64,000 nucleotides of DNA from a virus: positions 1 to 64,000 of IMG/VR virus record IMGVR_UViG_3300020395_000002; one strand, given 5' to 3'. Numbering within the stretch: the stretch's first letter is position 1; every line of letters starts with the position of its first letter. This document shows, piece after piece, positions 2,405 to 5,975 of the stretch. The position numbers and the translations under genes were made by a program. The notes under the pieces are model-generated. The model saw only the letters and a list, made by a program, of their open reading frames with translations, made no database searches and had not been told where the DNA came from.

Positions 2405-2575
2405 ATGGACGAAAACCCATTCTGGGGTGAACCTACTCCCACTGATCTGTGGGATGATATGGATAAACTCAATGAACTATACGAAGAACTTGGATGGGAT
2501 CATATTGATTACCTAGAGTTTGCTATTGAAGGTAACCATATAACTATTAGAAATAAATCGAGGGAAGGCAGATGA
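2405..2575 (+). CDS. Small acidic hypothetical protein
   Basis: MDENPFWGEPTPTDLWDDMDKLN...; likely ATG at 2405, downstream of the promoter candidate. Confidence 0.7.
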   Translation: MDENPFWGEPTPTDLWDDMDKLNELYEELGWDHIDYLEFAIEGNHITIRNKSREGR

Positions 2576-2808
2576 ACATCGTGTATACTATGACAGATTG
2601 TAAGTACTGCACCCTAGCTAAAGAACTGATGGCAAGAGCAAAGGTAGAGTATAAAGAGATCCTAGTTGACAGGGACATTACTAGGGAACAGGTCAAACTT
2701 GATCTCAACAAGGAGGTTGTCACATTTCCACAAGTAGTGTATAATGGTGACAACTTAGGAGGACTAGTAGAGACAGCACGACATTTTAAATCCATTGGGT
2801 TGGTCTAA
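2572..2808 (+). CDS. nrdC: Glutaredoxin (NrdC-like)
   Basis: CKYC active site, TFPQV cis-Pro motif, LGG. Confidence 0.9.
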   Translation: MNIVYTMTDCKYCTLAKELMARAKVEYKEILVDRDITREQVKLDLNKEVVTFPQVVYNGDNLGGLVETARHFKSIGLV

Positions 2809-3079: not shown

Positions 3080-3631
3080 ATGGCTGAATCATTATTAATT
3101 TCTGAAGTGCTGCAAAAGGTTAGCAATGCCAAGACTAAGGCAGCAAAGATTAATCTTTTACGGGAGCATAATAGTAATGCTCTCAGGAAAGTTTTGATTA
3201 TGAACTTCGATCCTAGTATCGAATCTGCTTTGCCCGAAGGTGCTGTACCATATAAACCTAATGAAGCACCTCCAGGAACAGAGCATTCTCAACTCAGCAC
3301 AGAACATAGAATTCTTCACTACTTTGTGAAGGGTGGTGCTGATGATCTCTCTAGTCTTAAGAGAGAAACAATGTTCGTAGGTCTTCTAGAAGGGTTACAC
3401 GAATCTGAGGCAGAGGTAGTCTGTCTAGTTAAAGACAAGAATCTTAAGAAGAAGTACAGGATTACTGAGAATGTAATCAAGGAGGCATTCCCTCAAATAA
3501 AATGGGGTAATAGAACTACACCACCTAAACCACAAGGTAAAGGATGGTCATCACCAGGCGAGAGAGCAACACAGGGAGTACCACTTCCTTCTATGGCTGT
3601 CAATCCTAATGAGACATCCTACGGAGGTTAA
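3080..3631 (+). CDS. Conserved T4-like cyanophage hypothetical protein
   Basis: LPEGAVPY...KRETMFVGLLEGLHESEA motif; preceded by CTAAATA at 3056. Confidence 0.8.
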   Translation: MAESLLISEVLQKVSNAKTKAAKINLLREHNSNALRKVLIMNFDPSIESALPEGAVPYKPNEAPPGTEHSQLSTEHRILHYFVKGGADDLSSLKRETMFVGLLEGLHESEAEVVCLVKDKNLKKKYRITENVIKEAFPQIKWGNRTTPPKPQGKGWSSPGERATQGVPLPSMAVNPNETSYGG

Positions 3632-3644
3632 GACTTCCTTAAAT

Positions 3645-3660
3645 TGTATCAGTCGATACA
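3645..3660. promoter_or_regulatory. NtcA-binding site
   Basis: TGTATCAGTCGATACA = TGTA-N8-TACA, the NtcA consensus, in an intergenic region. Confidence 0.75.
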
Positions 3661-3667
3661 AAACTAC

Positions 3668-3696
3668 TTGACTATATAATATAACTGTGTTATTAT
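3668..3696 (+). promoter_or_regulatory. sigma70 promoter for the riboswitch leader
   Basis: TTGACT-17-TATTAT with extended TG; predicted start near 3703, just before aptamer 1. Confidence 0.75.
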
Positions 3697-3703
3697 TAAC
3701 ACA

Positions 3704-3748
3704 ATCGTTCAACCCAAAAGGGTCGCAAGTAAGCCGACACGGAACGGA
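3704..3748 (+). ncRNA. Glutamine riboswitch-like aptamer 1 (glnA/Downstream-peptide class)
   Basis: CGTTCA-[ACCC aaaa GGGT]-CGCA-agtaagccgacac-GGAACGG; P1 CGTTC/GAACG. Confidence 0.8.
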
Positions 3749-3750
3749 TA

Positions 3751-3935
3751 CGTTCATCCCAGTATGTTTCATCTAGCAGTTATTGCATCTACCTTCTCTT
3801 GTATGGACGCTCAACTTCTTATCGATAAGATGTATGAGTTTAATATAGAGGATGAGACACGAGCAGAAATGATTCTGGTTGTGATAGAAGAAACACCTGA
3901 ATGCTGGGACGCAAATGCCGACTGAAGGAACGGGG
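3751..3935 (+). ncRNA. Glutamine riboswitch-like aptamer 2 with a ~135-nt P2 loop
   Basis: CGTTCA-TCCCAGTAT(3757-65)...ATGCTGGGA(3901-09)-CGCA-aatgccgactgaa-GGAACGGGG. Confidence 0.7.
3764..3925 (+). CDS. 53-aa peptide inside aptamer 2 (not in the ORF track)
   Basis: MFHLAVIASTFSCMDAQLLIDKMYEFNIEDETRAEMILVVIEETPECWDANAD*; ATG 3764, TGA 3923-25. Confidence 0.65.
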   Translation: MFHLAVIASTFSCMDAQLLIDKMYEFNIEDETRAEMILVVIEETPECWDANAD

Positions 3936-3966
3936 ATTAAACCACCCTACTTTCAGGAGAAAGCAA

Positions 3967-4110
3967 ATGACAACAGTCACTTATCGTGGAATCAAGTACG
4001 ATTCTGAAGAGTACAACGCAAGAGTGCTTGCAGAAGCATCAAAGCGTAACAGACACGATCTAATGTATCGTGGACTCAAGGTTAACAGCAAGGCAAAACC
4101 TTGTAGCTAA
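3967..4110 (+). CDS. DUF4278-family small protein
   Basis: MTTVTYRGIKY...LMYRGLKV (two YRG motifs); RBS AGGAGA at 3955-60; family is associated with glutamine riboswitches. Confidence 0.85.
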   Translation: MTTVTYRGIKYDSEEYNARVLAEASKRNRHDLMYRGLKVNSKAKPCS

Positions 4111-4114
4111 CACC

Positions 4115-4144
4115 AAAGAGACCCCTAAATAGGGGTCTTTTTTT
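4115..4144 (+). terminator. Rho-independent terminator, with CTAAATA across its loop
   Basis: agacccct-aaat-aggggtct followed by T run. Confidence 0.85.
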
Positions 4145-4173
4145 ATGGCCTACATAATTAAAGTGGGAACTAA

Positions 4174-4344
4174 ATGGACAAGGCAAAACTTAAAACAGTA
4201 GTAAAGGACTTGAAATCTTTATTAACTGTGCTAGAATCAGAAGTGTATTCTGATGTGGATGCTTATACAGCTAACCAACCTAGGAATACATTAATAAAAT
4301 CTACATACCTAAATCTCCAAGATGATGACGGCTACACTGACTGA
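4174..4344 (+). CDS. 56-aa hypothetical protein (not in the ORF track)
   Basis: MDKAKLKTVVKDLKSLLTVLESEVYSDVDAY...DDDGYTD*. Confidence 0.7.
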   Translation: MDKAKLKTVVKDLKSLLTVLESEVYSDVDAYTANQPRNTLIKSTYLNLQDDDGYTD

Positions 4345-4543: not shown

Positions 4544-4661
4544 AGAACATCCAGGATGGTATACAGAACAAGAAGTATACTATGCTAAAATGATTAAGAA
4601 AAGAATCAAAGCAAACAAACTTCGTAATGTAAAAGATGAGAGTGGAAGCGGAACTAGTTGA
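4500..4661 (+). CDS. Small basic hypothetical protein
   Basis: MKDKKAAKLIIKRSKEHPGWYTEQEVYYAK; ATG at 4500. Confidence 0.65.
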   Translation: MKDKKAAKLIIKRSKEHPGWYTEQEVYYAKMIKKRIKANKLRNVKDESGSGTS

Positions 4662-5304
4662 ACCTATCTTTCCTTTGCCATTAGCATACTATAAGTATCC
4701 TGATGACAAACATAAGGAACTGTTAGACGCAACTCGACAAGCAATTAAAAAGGTGCAACCTGGCTTTGCAGAAGGTAAGGCAGGTGCGTTAACGCATTTT
4801 TATCAGCATCAAAAAGAACATTTGTTATACGATAATGAAGATGAAATCTTCCAGCACTTTCACGACTGGTTGGAGGAATGTTATGCTGACTATGTGACTA
4901 ACGTACAAGGTTGGAAGATGACAGATAAAACATTCATCACCGACTGTTGGGTTAACGTTACTAAGGAGGGTGGTAATCAGGTACTACATTCACACGCTAA
5001 TGCATTTGTGTCTGGTACATACTATCTGCGTATGGAAGATGGTTCTGGACAGATAATGTATATCAATCCTTGTGCAATGGCTAACAGACCTTACTTTGGA
5101 TTTGATAACTGTAAAGCTACACCTTACAATGAGGCACAACACTTTGGTAACTGTCAAGAACAGTATCTTATTTTGTGGCCAAGTAATCTATCTCATATGA
5201 CCACACCTACTGAGAAAAATGCCACTAGAGTTTCTATCTCTATGAACTTTATGCCACAGGAATTCCTAGCTGGTGCTTATAATTTTAAGGTGACTAAGAA
5301 GTGA
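4636..5304 (+). CDS. Putative 2OG-Fe(II) oxygenase (TIGR02466-like)
   Basis: WVN...HSH...SGTYY...WPSNLSH...RVSISMN double-stranded beta-helix motifs. Confidence 0.85.
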   Translation: MRVEAELVEPIFPLPLAYYKYPDDKHKELLDATRQAIKKVQPGFAEGKAGALTHFYQHQKEHLLYDNEDEIFQHFHDWLEECYADYVTNVQGWKMTDKTFITDCWVNVTKEGGNQVLHSHANAFVSGTYYLRMEDGSGQIMYINPCAMANRPYFGFDNCKATPYNEAQHFGNCQEQYLILWPSNLSHMTTPTEKNATRVSISMNFMPQEFLAGAYNFKVTKK

Positions 5305-5975
5305 GAATATCACCTAATAGAATTGACTTACGTAGTATGTTTGCTACACCTCTTGGCACATATAAAATGCCAGAGGATAAGCACGAAGAATTTAAGGTTG
5401 CTGTACGTGAATCAATAAAAAAATCTGACGTAAGAATTAATGATGCAGCACCATCTTTAAAACATTATTATCAGAAGAGTGCAGAGCATTTACTGTATGA
5501 TAATGATGAACCTATCTTTAAATATTTTCATAGGTGGTTGGAAGAATGTTATTGTGATTTTGTTATAGATGTACAAGGATATAATAGTTCACAAGATGTG
5601 TTTGTTACTGACTGTTGGGTTAACGTAGCAGCAGAGGGTGGTCATCAAGTGATGCACGCTCACGCTAACTCTTTGGTATCTGGTACGTACTACGTACATA
5701 TGGAAGGGCAGTGTGGTGATGTGGTGTTCTGTAACCCTTCAAATTCTGCTAACAAACCTTACCTACAACATATGATACTAAAGGACTCACCGTTTAGTGC
5801 TTCACAAGAGATAGGTAATGCAAGAGAAGGACATCTTATATTATGGCCAGGTCATTTAAACCATTACACCTTGCCAACTGGAGCAAATTCTGCTAGAGTA
5901 TCAGTCTCAATGAATTTTATGCCACAGGTACTTACGTATGGTGGATACAATTATAGGTTAACTAAGGATGAGTAG
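5301..5975 (+). CDS. Putative 2OG-Fe(II) oxygenase (paralog 2)
   Basis: TDCWVN, HAH, SGTYY, WPGHLNH, RVSVSMN. Confidence 0.85.
   Translation: MRISPNRIDLRSMFATPLGTYKMPEDKHEEFKVAVRESIKKSDVRINDAAPSLKHYYQKSAEHLLYDNDEPIFKYFHRWLEECYCDFVIDVQGYNSSQDVFVTDCWVNVAAEGGHQVMHAHANSLVSGTYYVHMEGQCGDVVFCNPSNSANKPYLQHMILKDSPFSASQEIGNAREGHLILWPGHLNHYTLPTGANSARVSVSMNFMPQVLTYGGYNYRLTKDE

What the first reader, a model, noticed from the sequence alone, without database searches (positions are those of the whole stretch)
3751..3935. Protein-coding ORF nested inside a glutamine-riboswitch-like aptamer
Seen: aptamer 2 keeps the core CGTTCA...CGCA...GGAACGG. Its 9-bp P2 stem (TCCCAGTAT 3757-65 / ATGCTGGGA 3901-09, one G-U pair) closes a ~135-nt loop. 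A 53-codon ORF starts in the 5' arm of P2, reads through the loop, the 3' arm and CGCA, and stops (TGA 3923-25) just before the 3' P1 strand. Known: glnA and Downstream-peptide RNAs bind glutamine and occur in marine cyanobacteria and their phages. Inference: aptamer folding would sequester the AUG and a translating ribosome would melt the aptamer, so ligand sensing and translation could be mutually coupled and gate the downstream DUF4278 gene. The peptide (hydrophobic N-terminus, two Cys) has no Gln-rich tract, so it is not a simple attenuator leader.
Basis: partly seen in the sequence, partly recalled or inferred. Interest (0 to 1): 0.85.

Follow-up and report, generated by a model that had tools for sequence, protein, structure and literature searches.

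The report
Gene nested inside cyanophage glutamine riboswitch
In this T4-like cyanophage, one hairpin of a glutamine-sensing RNA switch closes around a real 53-codon protein gene, so sensing the host's nitrogen state and translating that gene should compete on one mRNA.

Summary
The leader 3704-3933 is a two-repeat glutamine (glnA-type) riboswitch upstream of a DUF4278 gene. The hairpin of repeat 2 (3757-65 / 3901-09, 9 bp) closes a 135-nt loop holding ORF 3764-3925.

This is not chance. All 94 insertion-bearing second repeats among 125 sampled phage matches carry an ORF that starts in the 5' arm. All 79 peptide-found relatives of the window's ORF lie in the same RNA context.

- The hairpin covaries across the ORF.
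- The ORF is under purifying selection, dN/dS about 0.2.
- Synonymous sites that overlap the RNA core are frozen.
- An insertion-free near-twin leader hits Rfam Glutamine at E 2e-5.
- The ORF's stop codon lies in the strand that sequesters the DUF4278 Shine-Dalgarno.

Competition between folding and translation follows from the anatomy. Its regulatory sign is untested.

This scan has noted the same layout before on other DNA (193 notes, at least 130 genomes). Six literature searches found no paper describing it.

The parts
3646..3659 (+). NtcA-like GTA-N8-TAC palindrome (GTATCAGTCGATAC) upstream of the promoter; context only
   Evidence: Pattern hit. The motif alone is common: 41 in the window against 29 expected. 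Its position is conserved in L027 and P-TIM68 (alignment A3). Also noted by the earlier scan note e1-6127092.
3668..3696 (+). Sigma-70-like promoter TTGACT-17-TATTAT with TG before the -10; the predicted start lies a few bases before repeat 1
   Evidence: 10 of 12 matches. Conserved in A3.
3704..3750 (+). Repeat 1 of the glutamine riboswitch: strand a1 CGTTC 3706-3710, hairpin ACCC-AAAA-GGGT 3712-3723, core CGCAAGTAAGCCGACAC 3724-3740, strand b1 GGAACGG 3741-3747
   Evidence: RF01739 at 32.6 bits, E 2e-5 and E 1.2e-6. This is below the gathering score of 35.
3751..3756 (+). Strand a2 (CGTTCA) of repeat 2; complementary to b1 (inner helix GAACG-GATA-CGTTC) and, in sequence, also to b2
   Evidence: The inner hairpin appears in the MFE fold. 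b1:a2 covariation in relatives: 12 of 12, with 0 uncompensated in IMG/VR.
3757..3765 (+). 5' arm of the repeat-2 hairpin (TCCCAGTAT); contains A and T of the start codon
3764..3925 (+). Nested ORF of 53 aa, two invariant Cys, phrog_504 family of unknown function; predicted helical hairpin
   Evidence: dN/dS; pLDDT 81.8; 387 representatives.
3901..3909 (+). 3' arm of the repeat-2 hairpin (ATGCTGGGA); also encodes Cys-Trp-Asp
   Evidence: TGG GAC GCA are invariant in 68 of 68 unique subfamily sequences.
3910..3926 (+). Repeat-2 core CGCAAATGCCGACTGAA, read as Ala-Asn-Ala-Asp-stop by the nested ORF
   Evidence: The 3' half is identical in the insertion-free L027, which matches RF01739.
3927..3933 (+). 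Strand b2 (GGAACGG); probable partner of a1 (outer helix)
   Evidence: a1:b2 covariation CGTTTA/GAAACGG in 16 of 16 informative loci.
3922..3956 (+). Expression platform: CTGAAGG (3922-3928, contains stop TGA and the first GG of b2) pairs with CTTTCAG (3950-3956, overlaps the SD); small hairpin GGGG 3932-35 / CCCT 3945-48 lies inside
   Evidence: The MFE shows this in 105 of 106 unique platforms. TTCAGG occurs only with TGA (21 cases). TAA occurs only with TTTAGG or TTTGG (38 of 38).
3955..3959 (+). Shine-Dalgarno AGGAG of the DUF4278 gene
3967..4110 (+). DUF4278 gene (47 aa), related to IF17-like glutamine synthetase inactivating factors
   Evidence: PF14105 at 25.4 bits against a cut-off of 25.3. 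phrog_5049 at E 2.2e-21. The link between DUF4278 and IF17 comes from PMC6212724 (passages).
4119..4145 (+). Hairpin AGACCCC...GGGGTCT followed by a run of T: terminator of the cassette
   Evidence: Sequence. The same hairpin is flagged by the scan, which listed it on the - strand.

Best explanation
Bases 3704-3959 form the leader of a two-gene mini-operon. The leader is a double glutamine riboswitch of the glnA type. Its two repeats are most likely interlocked: the 5' strand of repeat 1 pairs with the 3' strand of repeat 2 (outer helix), and the 3' strand of repeat 1 pairs with the 5' strand of repeat 2 (inner hairpin).

The peripheral hairpin of repeat 2 tolerates a large loop, and that loop has been colonised by a real gene for a 53-aa two-cysteine helical protein. 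The gene borrows RNA-core sequence. Its AUG is part of the hairpin's 5' arm. Its last five to six codons (W-D-A-N-A-D) and its UGA are the hairpin's 3' arm and the conserved core.

Shown here: conservation, covariation, coding selection and dual constraint.

Inferred: on any one mRNA molecule the folded, glutamine-bound RNA and a ribosome on the nested gene exclude each other.
- With glutamine bound, the AUG is shut between the inner hairpin and the repeat-2 hairpin. Strand b2 is held in the outer helix, which frees the DUF4278 Shine-Dalgarno. The DUF4278 gene is then on and the nested gene off.
- Without glutamine, b2/CUGAAGG pairs with CUUUCAG over the Shine-Dalgarno, so DUF4278 is off. The weak long-range hairpin opens and the nested gene is translated.
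- Each ribosome that terminates on the UGA inside the sequestering strand briefly opens that helix, which may leak or couple some DUF4278 translation.
For: Riboswitch identity:
- Repeat 1 matches RF01739 at E 2e-5.
- The insertion-free twin of repeat 2 in L027 matches at E 2.2e-5.
- The insertion maps exactly to the hairpin loop.

Conservation:
- 94 of 94 insertion-bearing repeats have the ATG in the 5' arm.
- 88 of 94 stop at the TRA that abuts AGGAACGG.
- 79 of 79 peptide-found relatives lie in this context.

Hairpin selected across the ORF:
- Pairs 1-4 hold in 91-92 of 92 unique sequences and pair 5 in 83 of 92, with CG/TA/TG/AT alternation.
- Positions 3-5 are 0.964 paired, against a shuffled mean of 0.795; 0 of 2000 shuffles reach the observed value.

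Coding:
- dN/dS is 0.22-0.26.
- Entropy by codon position is 1.38 / 1.00 / 1.64.
- AlphaFold2 gives pLDDT 81.8.
- 387 representative proteins match, and the 150 listed are all short.

Dual constraint: GAC and GCA codons over the core are invariant in 68 of 68 unique sequences, while other Asp, Ala and Cys codons vary.

Expression platform: the helix appears in 105 of 106 unique platforms and covaries with the stop codon. An ON-switch model of this kind is proposed for gifB in PMC6212724 (passage).

Interlocking.

Exact-match metatranscriptome contigs run through both arm junctions.
Against: - No experiment bears on this: glutamine binding, translation of the ORF and any switching are all untested.
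- Both Rfam matches lie below the gathering score (32.6 and 32.4 against 35), and repeat 2 itself gives no hit.
- The window's nested ORF has no clear Shine-Dalgarno. A GGAG-like linker occurs in 51 of 94 relatives, but the window's linker is ATA.
- Most relatives pair only the A of the AUG. Positions 6 and 7 pair in 48 and 43 of 92, so sequestration by base-pairing alone is weak.
- The ribosome can load before the 3' half is transcribed, so first-round translation may escape control.
- A terminating ribosome would open the Shine-Dalgarno helix, which argues for co-expression rather than reciprocal expression.
- The covariation counts come from related sequences and reflect few independent events. 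The a1:b2 case may be one or two events.
- RNA-library contigs cannot exclude DNA carry-over.
Confidence: 0.6

Rival explanations
1. Positive coupling. The riboswitch, mainly repeat 1 and the inner hairpin, turns on translation of the nested gene when glutamine is high. Ribosomes that terminate on the UGA inside the sequestering strand are then what open the DUF4278 Shine-Dalgarno. The two proteins would be co-expressed, and the nested ORF would act as a coupling device as well as a gene.
For: The stop codon lies in the anti-SD strand in 88 of 94 cases. The stop is 41 nt from the next ATG. A GGAG-like linker just upstream occurs in 51 of 94 ORF-bearing leaders and in 0 of 28 plain ones. The inner hairpin b1:a2 lies directly 5' of the AUG.
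Against: The same UGA/UAA triplet and the same helix exist in leaders without any ORF (23 of 24 plain platforms), so the platform works without coupling. In 5 of 94 the ORF stops earlier, in the hairpin arm. The frame relation to the downstream gene is random: 24 of 82 are in frame. The GGAG lies partly inside the inner hairpin, and its enrichment may be phylogenetic.
Confidence: 0.25
2. Decayed aptamer. The gene insertion destroyed repeat 2 as a sensor. Its two halves persist only because the 5' half forms the inner hairpin and the 3' half is the anti-SD strand and C-terminal coding sequence. Only a single core, or none, senses glutamine.
For: No covariance-model hit for repeat 2. The 5-bp stem closing a loop of 135 nt or more is thermodynamically weak by itself. 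The core overlaps coding sequence, which could explain part of its conservation.
Against: Compensatory changes keep the hairpin paired across the ORF. Synonymous sites over the core are frozen while other codons for the same residues vary. The arrangement holds across 83 unique peptides, including some that differ widely from one another, and also occurs in repeat 1 (O-O 15, O-p 6).
Confidence: 0.1
3. The insertion is a mobile or self-splicing element, or a non-coding structured domain. It would be removed from, or irrelevant to, the mature RNA, and the ORF would be an annotation artefact.
For: Plain and ORF-bearing forms coexist in closely related leaders (L027 against the window). A homing-endonuclease-like gene sits in another loop of the same RNA in 5 loci. 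The leader folds better than shuffles, z = -3.6.
Against: No intron or other RNA family is found. RNA-library contigs with 0 differences span both junctions: 3735-3885 and 3762-3934. The 'skipping' joints carry different loop letters, so they come from other genomes. Coding signatures are strong.
Confidence: 0.03

Closest known systems
Type 1 glutamine riboswitch (glnA RNA, Rfam RF01739), for example the Synechocystis gifB/IF17 leader (PMC6212724)
   Same: The core sequences match (CGUUCA, hairpin, CGCAAG..., GGAACG). It is associated with a DUF4278/IF17-like gene. The expression platform has the 3' side of the aptamer pairing with the ribosome-binding region, which fits an ON switch.
   Different: The scores lie just under Rfam's gathering threshold. 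There are two repeats whose P1 strands appear swapped (interlocked). One hairpin loop holds a whole protein gene that shares its start, its last codons and its stop with the RNA. It is phage-encoded.
Tandem glnA RNAs (Weinberg et al. 2010, PMC2864571; review PMC10265488) and tandem glycine riboswitches
   Same: Two ligand-sensing repeats lie in one leader. The published idea is more digital or cooperative control (passages).
   Different: The passages I read describe the tandem repeats as arranged in series. Here covariation supports an outer a1:b2 helix and an inner b1:a2 helix. I found no mention of genes inside the aptamers.
Type 2 glutamine riboswitch (Downstream-peptide motif, RF01704) with its small DUF4278 ORFs
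   Same: The core is similar: repeat 1 scores 25.5 bits and the L027 repeat 2 scores 27.7 bits. The downstream gene is of the same kind.
   Different: In that motif the peptide gene lies downstream of the aptamer. Here an additional, unrelated gene lies inside it. Both scores are below the gathering score of 33.
Group I introns with homing-endonuclease ORFs in peripheral loops, such as T4 td / I-TevI (recalled from memory; PMC3984707 seen only in a search listing)
   Same: A structured functional RNA hosts a protein gene in a peripheral loop, so ribosomes and RNA folding conflict. It also occurs in T4-like phages.
   Different: The host RNA here is a ligand-sensing aptamer, not a ribozyme. The nested gene is a tiny two-Cys protein, not an endonuclease. 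No splicing occurs. The gene shares codons with the conserved RNA core.
Leader-peptide attenuation (trp, his and similar operons; general knowledge)
   Same: A short upstream ORF is present whose translation alters downstream RNA pairing.
   Different: There is no run of regulatory codons (one Gln). The peptide sequence is conserved under purifying selection and has a predicted fold.

Membership tests
Glutamine riboswitch type 1 (RF01739) | Covariance-model score at or above Rfam's gathering score (35 bits) | tested here: not met
   Repeat 1 scores 32.6 bits, E 2e-5 and E 1.2e-6. Repeat 2 gives no hit. Its insertion-free twin in L027 scores 32.4 bits. These are significant E-values but lie under the curated cut-off.
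Glutamine riboswitch type 1 (RF01739) | Conserved core: CGUUCA, hairpin, CGCA/CGGAAG..., GAAGGAACG | tested here: met
   Both repeats carry it. The 3' half of repeat 2 is identical to that of L027.
Glutamine riboswitch type 1 (RF01739) | Hairpin next to the 5' strand is a real helix (covariation) | tested here: met
   Across 92 unique ORF-bearing repeats, pairs 1-5 are kept with compensatory changes. 0 of 2000 shuffles reach the observed pairing.
Glutamine riboswitch type 1 (RF01739) | P1 is formed by the 5' and 3' strands of the same repeat | tested here: not met
   In relatives the changes are compensated across repeats: b1 GCAACGG with a2 CGTTGA in 12 of 12, and a1 CGTTTA with b2 GAAACGG in 16 of 16 informative loci. 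There are 0 uncompensated cases. The window's own strands are canonical and uninformative.
Glutamine riboswitch type 1 (RF01739) | Binds L-glutamine selectively | not testable with these tools
   Needs in-line probing, ITC or NMR.
Glutamine riboswitch type 1 (RF01739) | Lies in the 5' leader of a nitrogen-related gene (DUF4278/IF17-like) | tested here: met
   PF14105 at 25.4 against 25.3 bits for 3967-4107. The promoter lies just upstream.
DUF4278 (PF14105) | Pfam score at or above the gathering score | tested here: met
   25.4 bits against a cut-off of 25.3, a marginal pass. phrog_5049 at E 2.2e-21.
phrog_504 (nested two-Cys protein, function unknown) | Profile match over the whole length | tested here: met
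   E 4.6e-11, residues 6-52 of 53. An HMM of 82 relatives finds 387 representatives.
Leader peptide of an attenuator | Run of codons for the sensed amino acid; peptide sequence itself not conserved | tested here: not met
   One Gln in 53 residues. dN/dS is 0.22-0.26. The predicted fold is confident.
Self-splicing intron with ORF | Intron RNA core; spliced product present in RNA | tested here: not met
   No Rfam intron family is found. Exact RNA-library contigs cross both junctions unspliced. Contigs cannot rule out a rare spliced form.

The most novel reading that the evidence does not exclude
Cyanophages use an interlocked double glutamine aptamer as a scaffold whose hairpin loops carry protein genes. 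Translation of those genes and glutamine sensing then act on each other in both directions. This would give reciprocal, nitrogen-dependent expression of a two-Cys helical protein at low glutamine and an IF17-like DUF4278 protein at high glutamine from one short mRNA. It would be a class of 'coding riboswitch' that standard covariance-model scans miss.
Probability: 0.3. Interest if true: 0.9.

Novelty: new variant of a known kind. Interest (0 to 1): 0.78.

Why it matters
Riboswitch aptamers are treated as compact non-coding sensors. Here a protein gene lives inside one and shares its start, its last codons and its stop with conserved RNA. The layout is kept in most of the phage leaders sampled: 94 of the 122 leaders whose second repeat could be classified (125 matches in all).

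- It offers a natural system for studying how ribosomes and ligand-dependent RNA folding compete.
- It explains why riboswitch surveys reported almost no phage glutamine riboswitches. One survey found two aptamers in two cyanophages (PMC5473149). The covariance model does not see repeats with a gene in the loop.
- It points to two unstudied small-protein families (phrog_504, phrog_6471) that phages express under host nitrogen control, next to a relative of the host's glutamine synthetase inhibitors.
- The swapped-strand architecture would also be a new way to build a tandem riboswitch.

Tried and rejected
- **Rfam at gathering threshold** over the whole window found nothing.
I used the natural insertion-free relative L027 instead.
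I switched to DNA patterns and later to the single protein.
- **tblastn of the 53-aa ORF against the phage collection** gave no match at E <= 1e-3. The S-SSM4, S-SSM7 and P-SSM2 homologues (31-39% identity) were found through DNA similarity.
- **Function of the nested protein** stayed open. Foldseek against PDB gave nothing at E <= 1e-3, only generic helical hairpins. Pfam gave nothing for the nested ORFs. The protein atlas gave only unnamed viral clusters.
- **Host origin.** The peptide profile hit 1 of 401 genomes in the family of a Prochlorococcus single-cell assembly, and that hit is on a 194-kb phage-sized contig. Of 15 genome contigs pattern hits, 8 are phage-like leaders and 7 are chance matches. 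Wording is therefore 'not found in those searched'.
- **Read-through fusion with DUF4278**, suggested by the TGA=W-like predictions P0041 and P0146, is rejected. Only 24 of 82 leaders are in frame, about one third.
- **Intron or splicing** is rejected (see the rival explanations).
- **RNA libraries.** The four runs laid show no cover of 3500-3634 or of 4094-4300. By the tool's own caution this proves nothing about transcript ends. Most cover comes from relatives' conserved halves.
- **Scans for other strand variants** gave 0 hits for b1 = GAAACGG and one chance hit for b2 = GCAACGG.
- **Papers not held.** Ames and Breaker 2011 (PMC3127080) and Ren et al. 2015 (PMC4690532) could not be read, so I cannot say whether they mention large hairpin insertions. 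What I say of Ren et al. comes from the passage in PMC6212724.
- **Supplements** were not opened. Those that may bear on this are Klahn 2018 Tables S1/S2 and Figure S3, and Weinberg 2010 Additional file 1.
- **The claim 'not in print'** rests on the searches only.
Full report
**What is there.**
The window comes from a T4-like cyanomyovirus. Its neighbours in the phage collection are Synechococcus and Prochlorococcus myoviruses, and the record is a 90-kb viral contig.

Between a DUF6433 gene (3080-3631) and a hairpin-plus-T-run terminator (4119-4145) lies a compact cassette:
- an NtcA-like GTA-N8-TAC box at 3646-3659;
- a TTGACT-17-TATTAT promoter at 3668-3696;
- two glutamine-riboswitch repeats;
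- a 47-aa DUF4278 gene at 3967-4110 (PF14105, 25.4 bits against a cut-off of 25.3).

**Check of the observation.**
- CGTTCA is at 3751-56.
- The arms 3757-65 and 3901-09 form 9 bp with one G-U pair.
- The loop is 135 nt.
- ATG is at 3764 and TGA at 3923-25.
- GGAACGG is at 3927-33.
- The ORF encodes 53 aa.

Rfam finds nothing at gathering threshold. In E-value mode repeat 1 (3704-3750) matches the Glutamine family at 32.6 bits, E 2e-5. Repeat 2 is not found.

I could not submit a loop-deleted sequence, so I used nature's own. Contig L027 has an almost identical promoter, repeat 1 and repeat-2 halves, but a plain TTTAACGA loop. Its repeat 2 matches RF01739 at 32.4 bits, E 2.2e-5. Alignment A3 shows the window's extra DNA lying exactly in that loop. 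P-TIM68 is likewise plain.

**Is it chance?**
No. With four isolate loci and the window this made 125 matches:
- 28 were plain.
- 3 were cut by contig ends.
- 94 carried a 136-234-nt insertion.

All 94 insertions have an ATG in the 5' arm:
- 88 run open to the TGA or TAA that abuts AGGAACGG. This is 85 plus 3 whose 5' strand is CGTTGA.
- 4 stop at a TAG in the 3' arm.
- 1 stops 28 nt early.
- 1 (L064) reads on for 37 nt.

The 85 ORFs give 83 unique peptides of 49-66 aa.

A second sample did not depend on the RNA motif. It consisted of 80 loci found with peptide patterns from the window's ORF. The ORF was recognised in 79 of 81 loci (the window included), and the other two are cut by contig ends. 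All 79 lie in the same RNA context.

The isolates S-SSM4, S-SSM7 and P-SSM2 have the layout. In S-SSM4 and S-SSM7 the ORF is annotated as a hypothetical protein.

**The hairpin is kept across the gene.**
In 92 unique ORF-bearing repeats, pairs 1-4 are standard in 91-92 and pair 5 in 83. Alternation is seen at pair 4 (CG 60, TA 16, TG 10, AT 5) and pair 5 (AT 68, TA 9, CG 4).

The paired fraction is 0.81, against 0.34-0.61 when the partner is slid by one to three positions. Dealing the 3' arms out at random gives 0.795 for positions 3-5 against 0.964 observed, and 0 of 2000 shuffles reach the observed value. Related sequences inflate such counts.

The usual stem is 5 bp. The window's 9 bp is supported inside its own subfamily by TCCCAGTAT/ATGCTGGGA against TCCCAACAT/ATGTTGGGA.

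**The ORF is a gene.**
I analysed interior codons only, away from the arms and the core:
- dN/dS is 0.22 for 56 pairs at 70-90% amino-acid identity.
- dN/dS is 0.26 for 199 pairs at 50-70% identity.
- Entropy by codon position is 1.38 / 1.00 / 1.64.

Two Cys are invariant. AlphaFold2 with 82 relatives gives pLDDT 81.8 and a helical hairpin with helices at 13-25 and 30-43.

A profile finds 387 representative proteins at E <= 1e-3. The best 150 listed are all 44-116 aa. The family is phrog_504, of unknown function. No fold or family gives a function.

The family was found in 1 of 401 genomes of the picocyanobacterial family searched, on a phage-sized contig.

**Dual coding.**
In 68 unique subfamily sequences the codons over the RNA core never vary: TGG, GAC and GCA in 68 of 68, and the final GAC in 67 of 68. 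Other Asp, Ala and Cys codons in the same ORF vary freely. The RNA core is therefore under its own constraint.

**Expression platform.**
CUGAAGG (3922-28) contains the ORF's UGA and the first GG of the 3' strand. It pairs with CUUUCAG (3950-56), which overlaps the AGGAG Shine-Dalgarno.

- The MFE shows this helix in 105 of 106 unique platforms, plain and ORF-bearing alike.
- TAA goes only with TTTAGG or TTTGG (38 of 38), and TTCAGG goes only with TGA (21 cases).

This fits the ON-switch model proposed for gifB, in which glutamine binding melts a helix that blocks the ribosome-binding site (PMC6212724, passage). It also means that a ribosome terminating on the nested ORF must open that helix.

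**Interlocked repeats.**
Name the strands a1 and b1 (repeat 1) and a2 and b2 (repeat 2). Earlier notes of this scan called the repeats interlocked, and I tested this:

| Test | Result |
|---|---|
| b1 = GCAACGG in riboswitch context, a2 left free | 12 of 12 have a2 = CGTTGA, with four different linkers |
| b1 canonical with a2 = CGTTGA (uncompensated) | 0 in IMG/VR |
| b2 = GAAACGG (17 loci, 16 informative) | 16 of 16 have a1 = CGTTTA, including L261 whose b1/a2 are canonical |

Read in series these leaders would have mismatches in both P1 helices. Read crosswise, all pairs are standard. The outer helix is therefore a1:b2 and the inner one b1:a2. The inner hairpin also appears in the window's MFE fold.

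These are few independent events, perhaps one or two for a1:b2. The window's own strands are canonical.

**Wider picture.**
Among 122 leaders the architectures are as follows, where p is a plain repeat and O an ORF-bearing one:

| Architecture | Count |
|---|---|
| p-O (the window's layout) | 59 |
| p-p | 21 |
| O-O | 15 |
| O-p | 6 |
| O alone | 18 |
| other | 3 |

In some 'O alone' cases my pattern missed repeat 1.

ORFs nested in repeat 1 belong to phrog_6471 and related families. They also have two Cys, and they stop in the hairpin arm or in the CGCAAGUAAG core. A profile comparison with the window's family gives 79.7% probability, E 1.5e-5.

**RNA evidence.**
Exact-match contigs from metatranscriptome libraries of three studies cover 3735-3885, 3762-3934 and 3922-4071. 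This fits one unspliced transcript but does not prove transcription. Joints that skip the ORF carry other loop letters and stem from plain relatives.

**Mechanism.**
The shown and inferred parts are set out under the best explanation. The physical exclusion between a ribosome on the ORF and the folded sensor follows from the overlaps. Its sign, reciprocal or coupled, is open.

**Novelty.**
The glutamine riboswitch, its tandem forms and its DUF4278 link are published (PMC2864571, PMC6212724, PMC10265488; passages). One survey found only two glutamine aptamers in cyanophages (PMC5473149, passage).

Six full-text searches found no description of a gene inside the aptamer or of swapped strands. 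Two key papers are not held, and supplements were not seen.

This scan has noted the layout before on other DNA: 193 notes in at least 130 genomes.

Noticed in passing
L262:2256-2831 (also L264, L269, L270, L272): A 192-aa ORF with a GIY-YIG-like N-terminus is inserted in the linker between strands b1 and a2, that is, in the loop of the inner helix of the same riboswitch. It matches phrog_314 'homing endonuclease' at E 9.4e-9 and has no Pfam hit. b1 and a2 stay complementary across about 600 nt.
   Followed up: partly
L032:3509-3706, L039:5149-5349, L005:1960-2145 and 18 others: Repeat 1 can also host a gene. These are 61-75-aa two-Cys proteins (phrog_6471, E 1.6e-37). Their stop lies in the hairpin's 3' arm or in the CGCAAGTAAG core. 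Architectures O-O (15) and O-p (6) occur among 122 leaders.
   Followed up: partly
window 3646-3659: An NtcA-like GTATCAGTCGATAC box lies about 22 nt upstream of the -35 hexamer. It is conserved in L027 and P-TIM68 (A3). The bare motif is not rare in the window (41 against 29 expected).
   Followed up: partly
L025:8451-8615 and similar (L034, L051, L054, L079, L081): In part of the leaders the regulated gene is a different small protein (MNTL..IKKQIEK...YRG..) that matches DUF4278 only weakly, at E 0.044 and 14.6 bits.
   Followed up: partly
P0041, P0146 (database proteins): Some public gene calls read the nested ORF's TGA as Trp and fuse it to the DUF4278 protein. The frame relation across 82 leaders is random (24 in frame), so this looks like a gene-calling artefact.
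   Followed up: yes
window 4636-5304 and 5301-5975: Two adjacent paralogous 222-aa and 224-aa genes both match the putative 2OG-Fe(II) oxygenase family PF13759 (E about 2e-18). They lie just downstream of the cassette.
   Followed up: partly
window 2572-2808: A 78-aa glutaredoxin (PF00462, E 4.3e-11) lies about 1 kb upstream of the two-Cys nested gene. No link between them was tested.
   Followed up: no
window 3703-3975: The whole leader folds better than shuffles (-80 kcal/mol, z -3.6, 0 of 200 shuffles as good). The ORF interior is itself predicted to be a compact branched domain.
   Followed up: no
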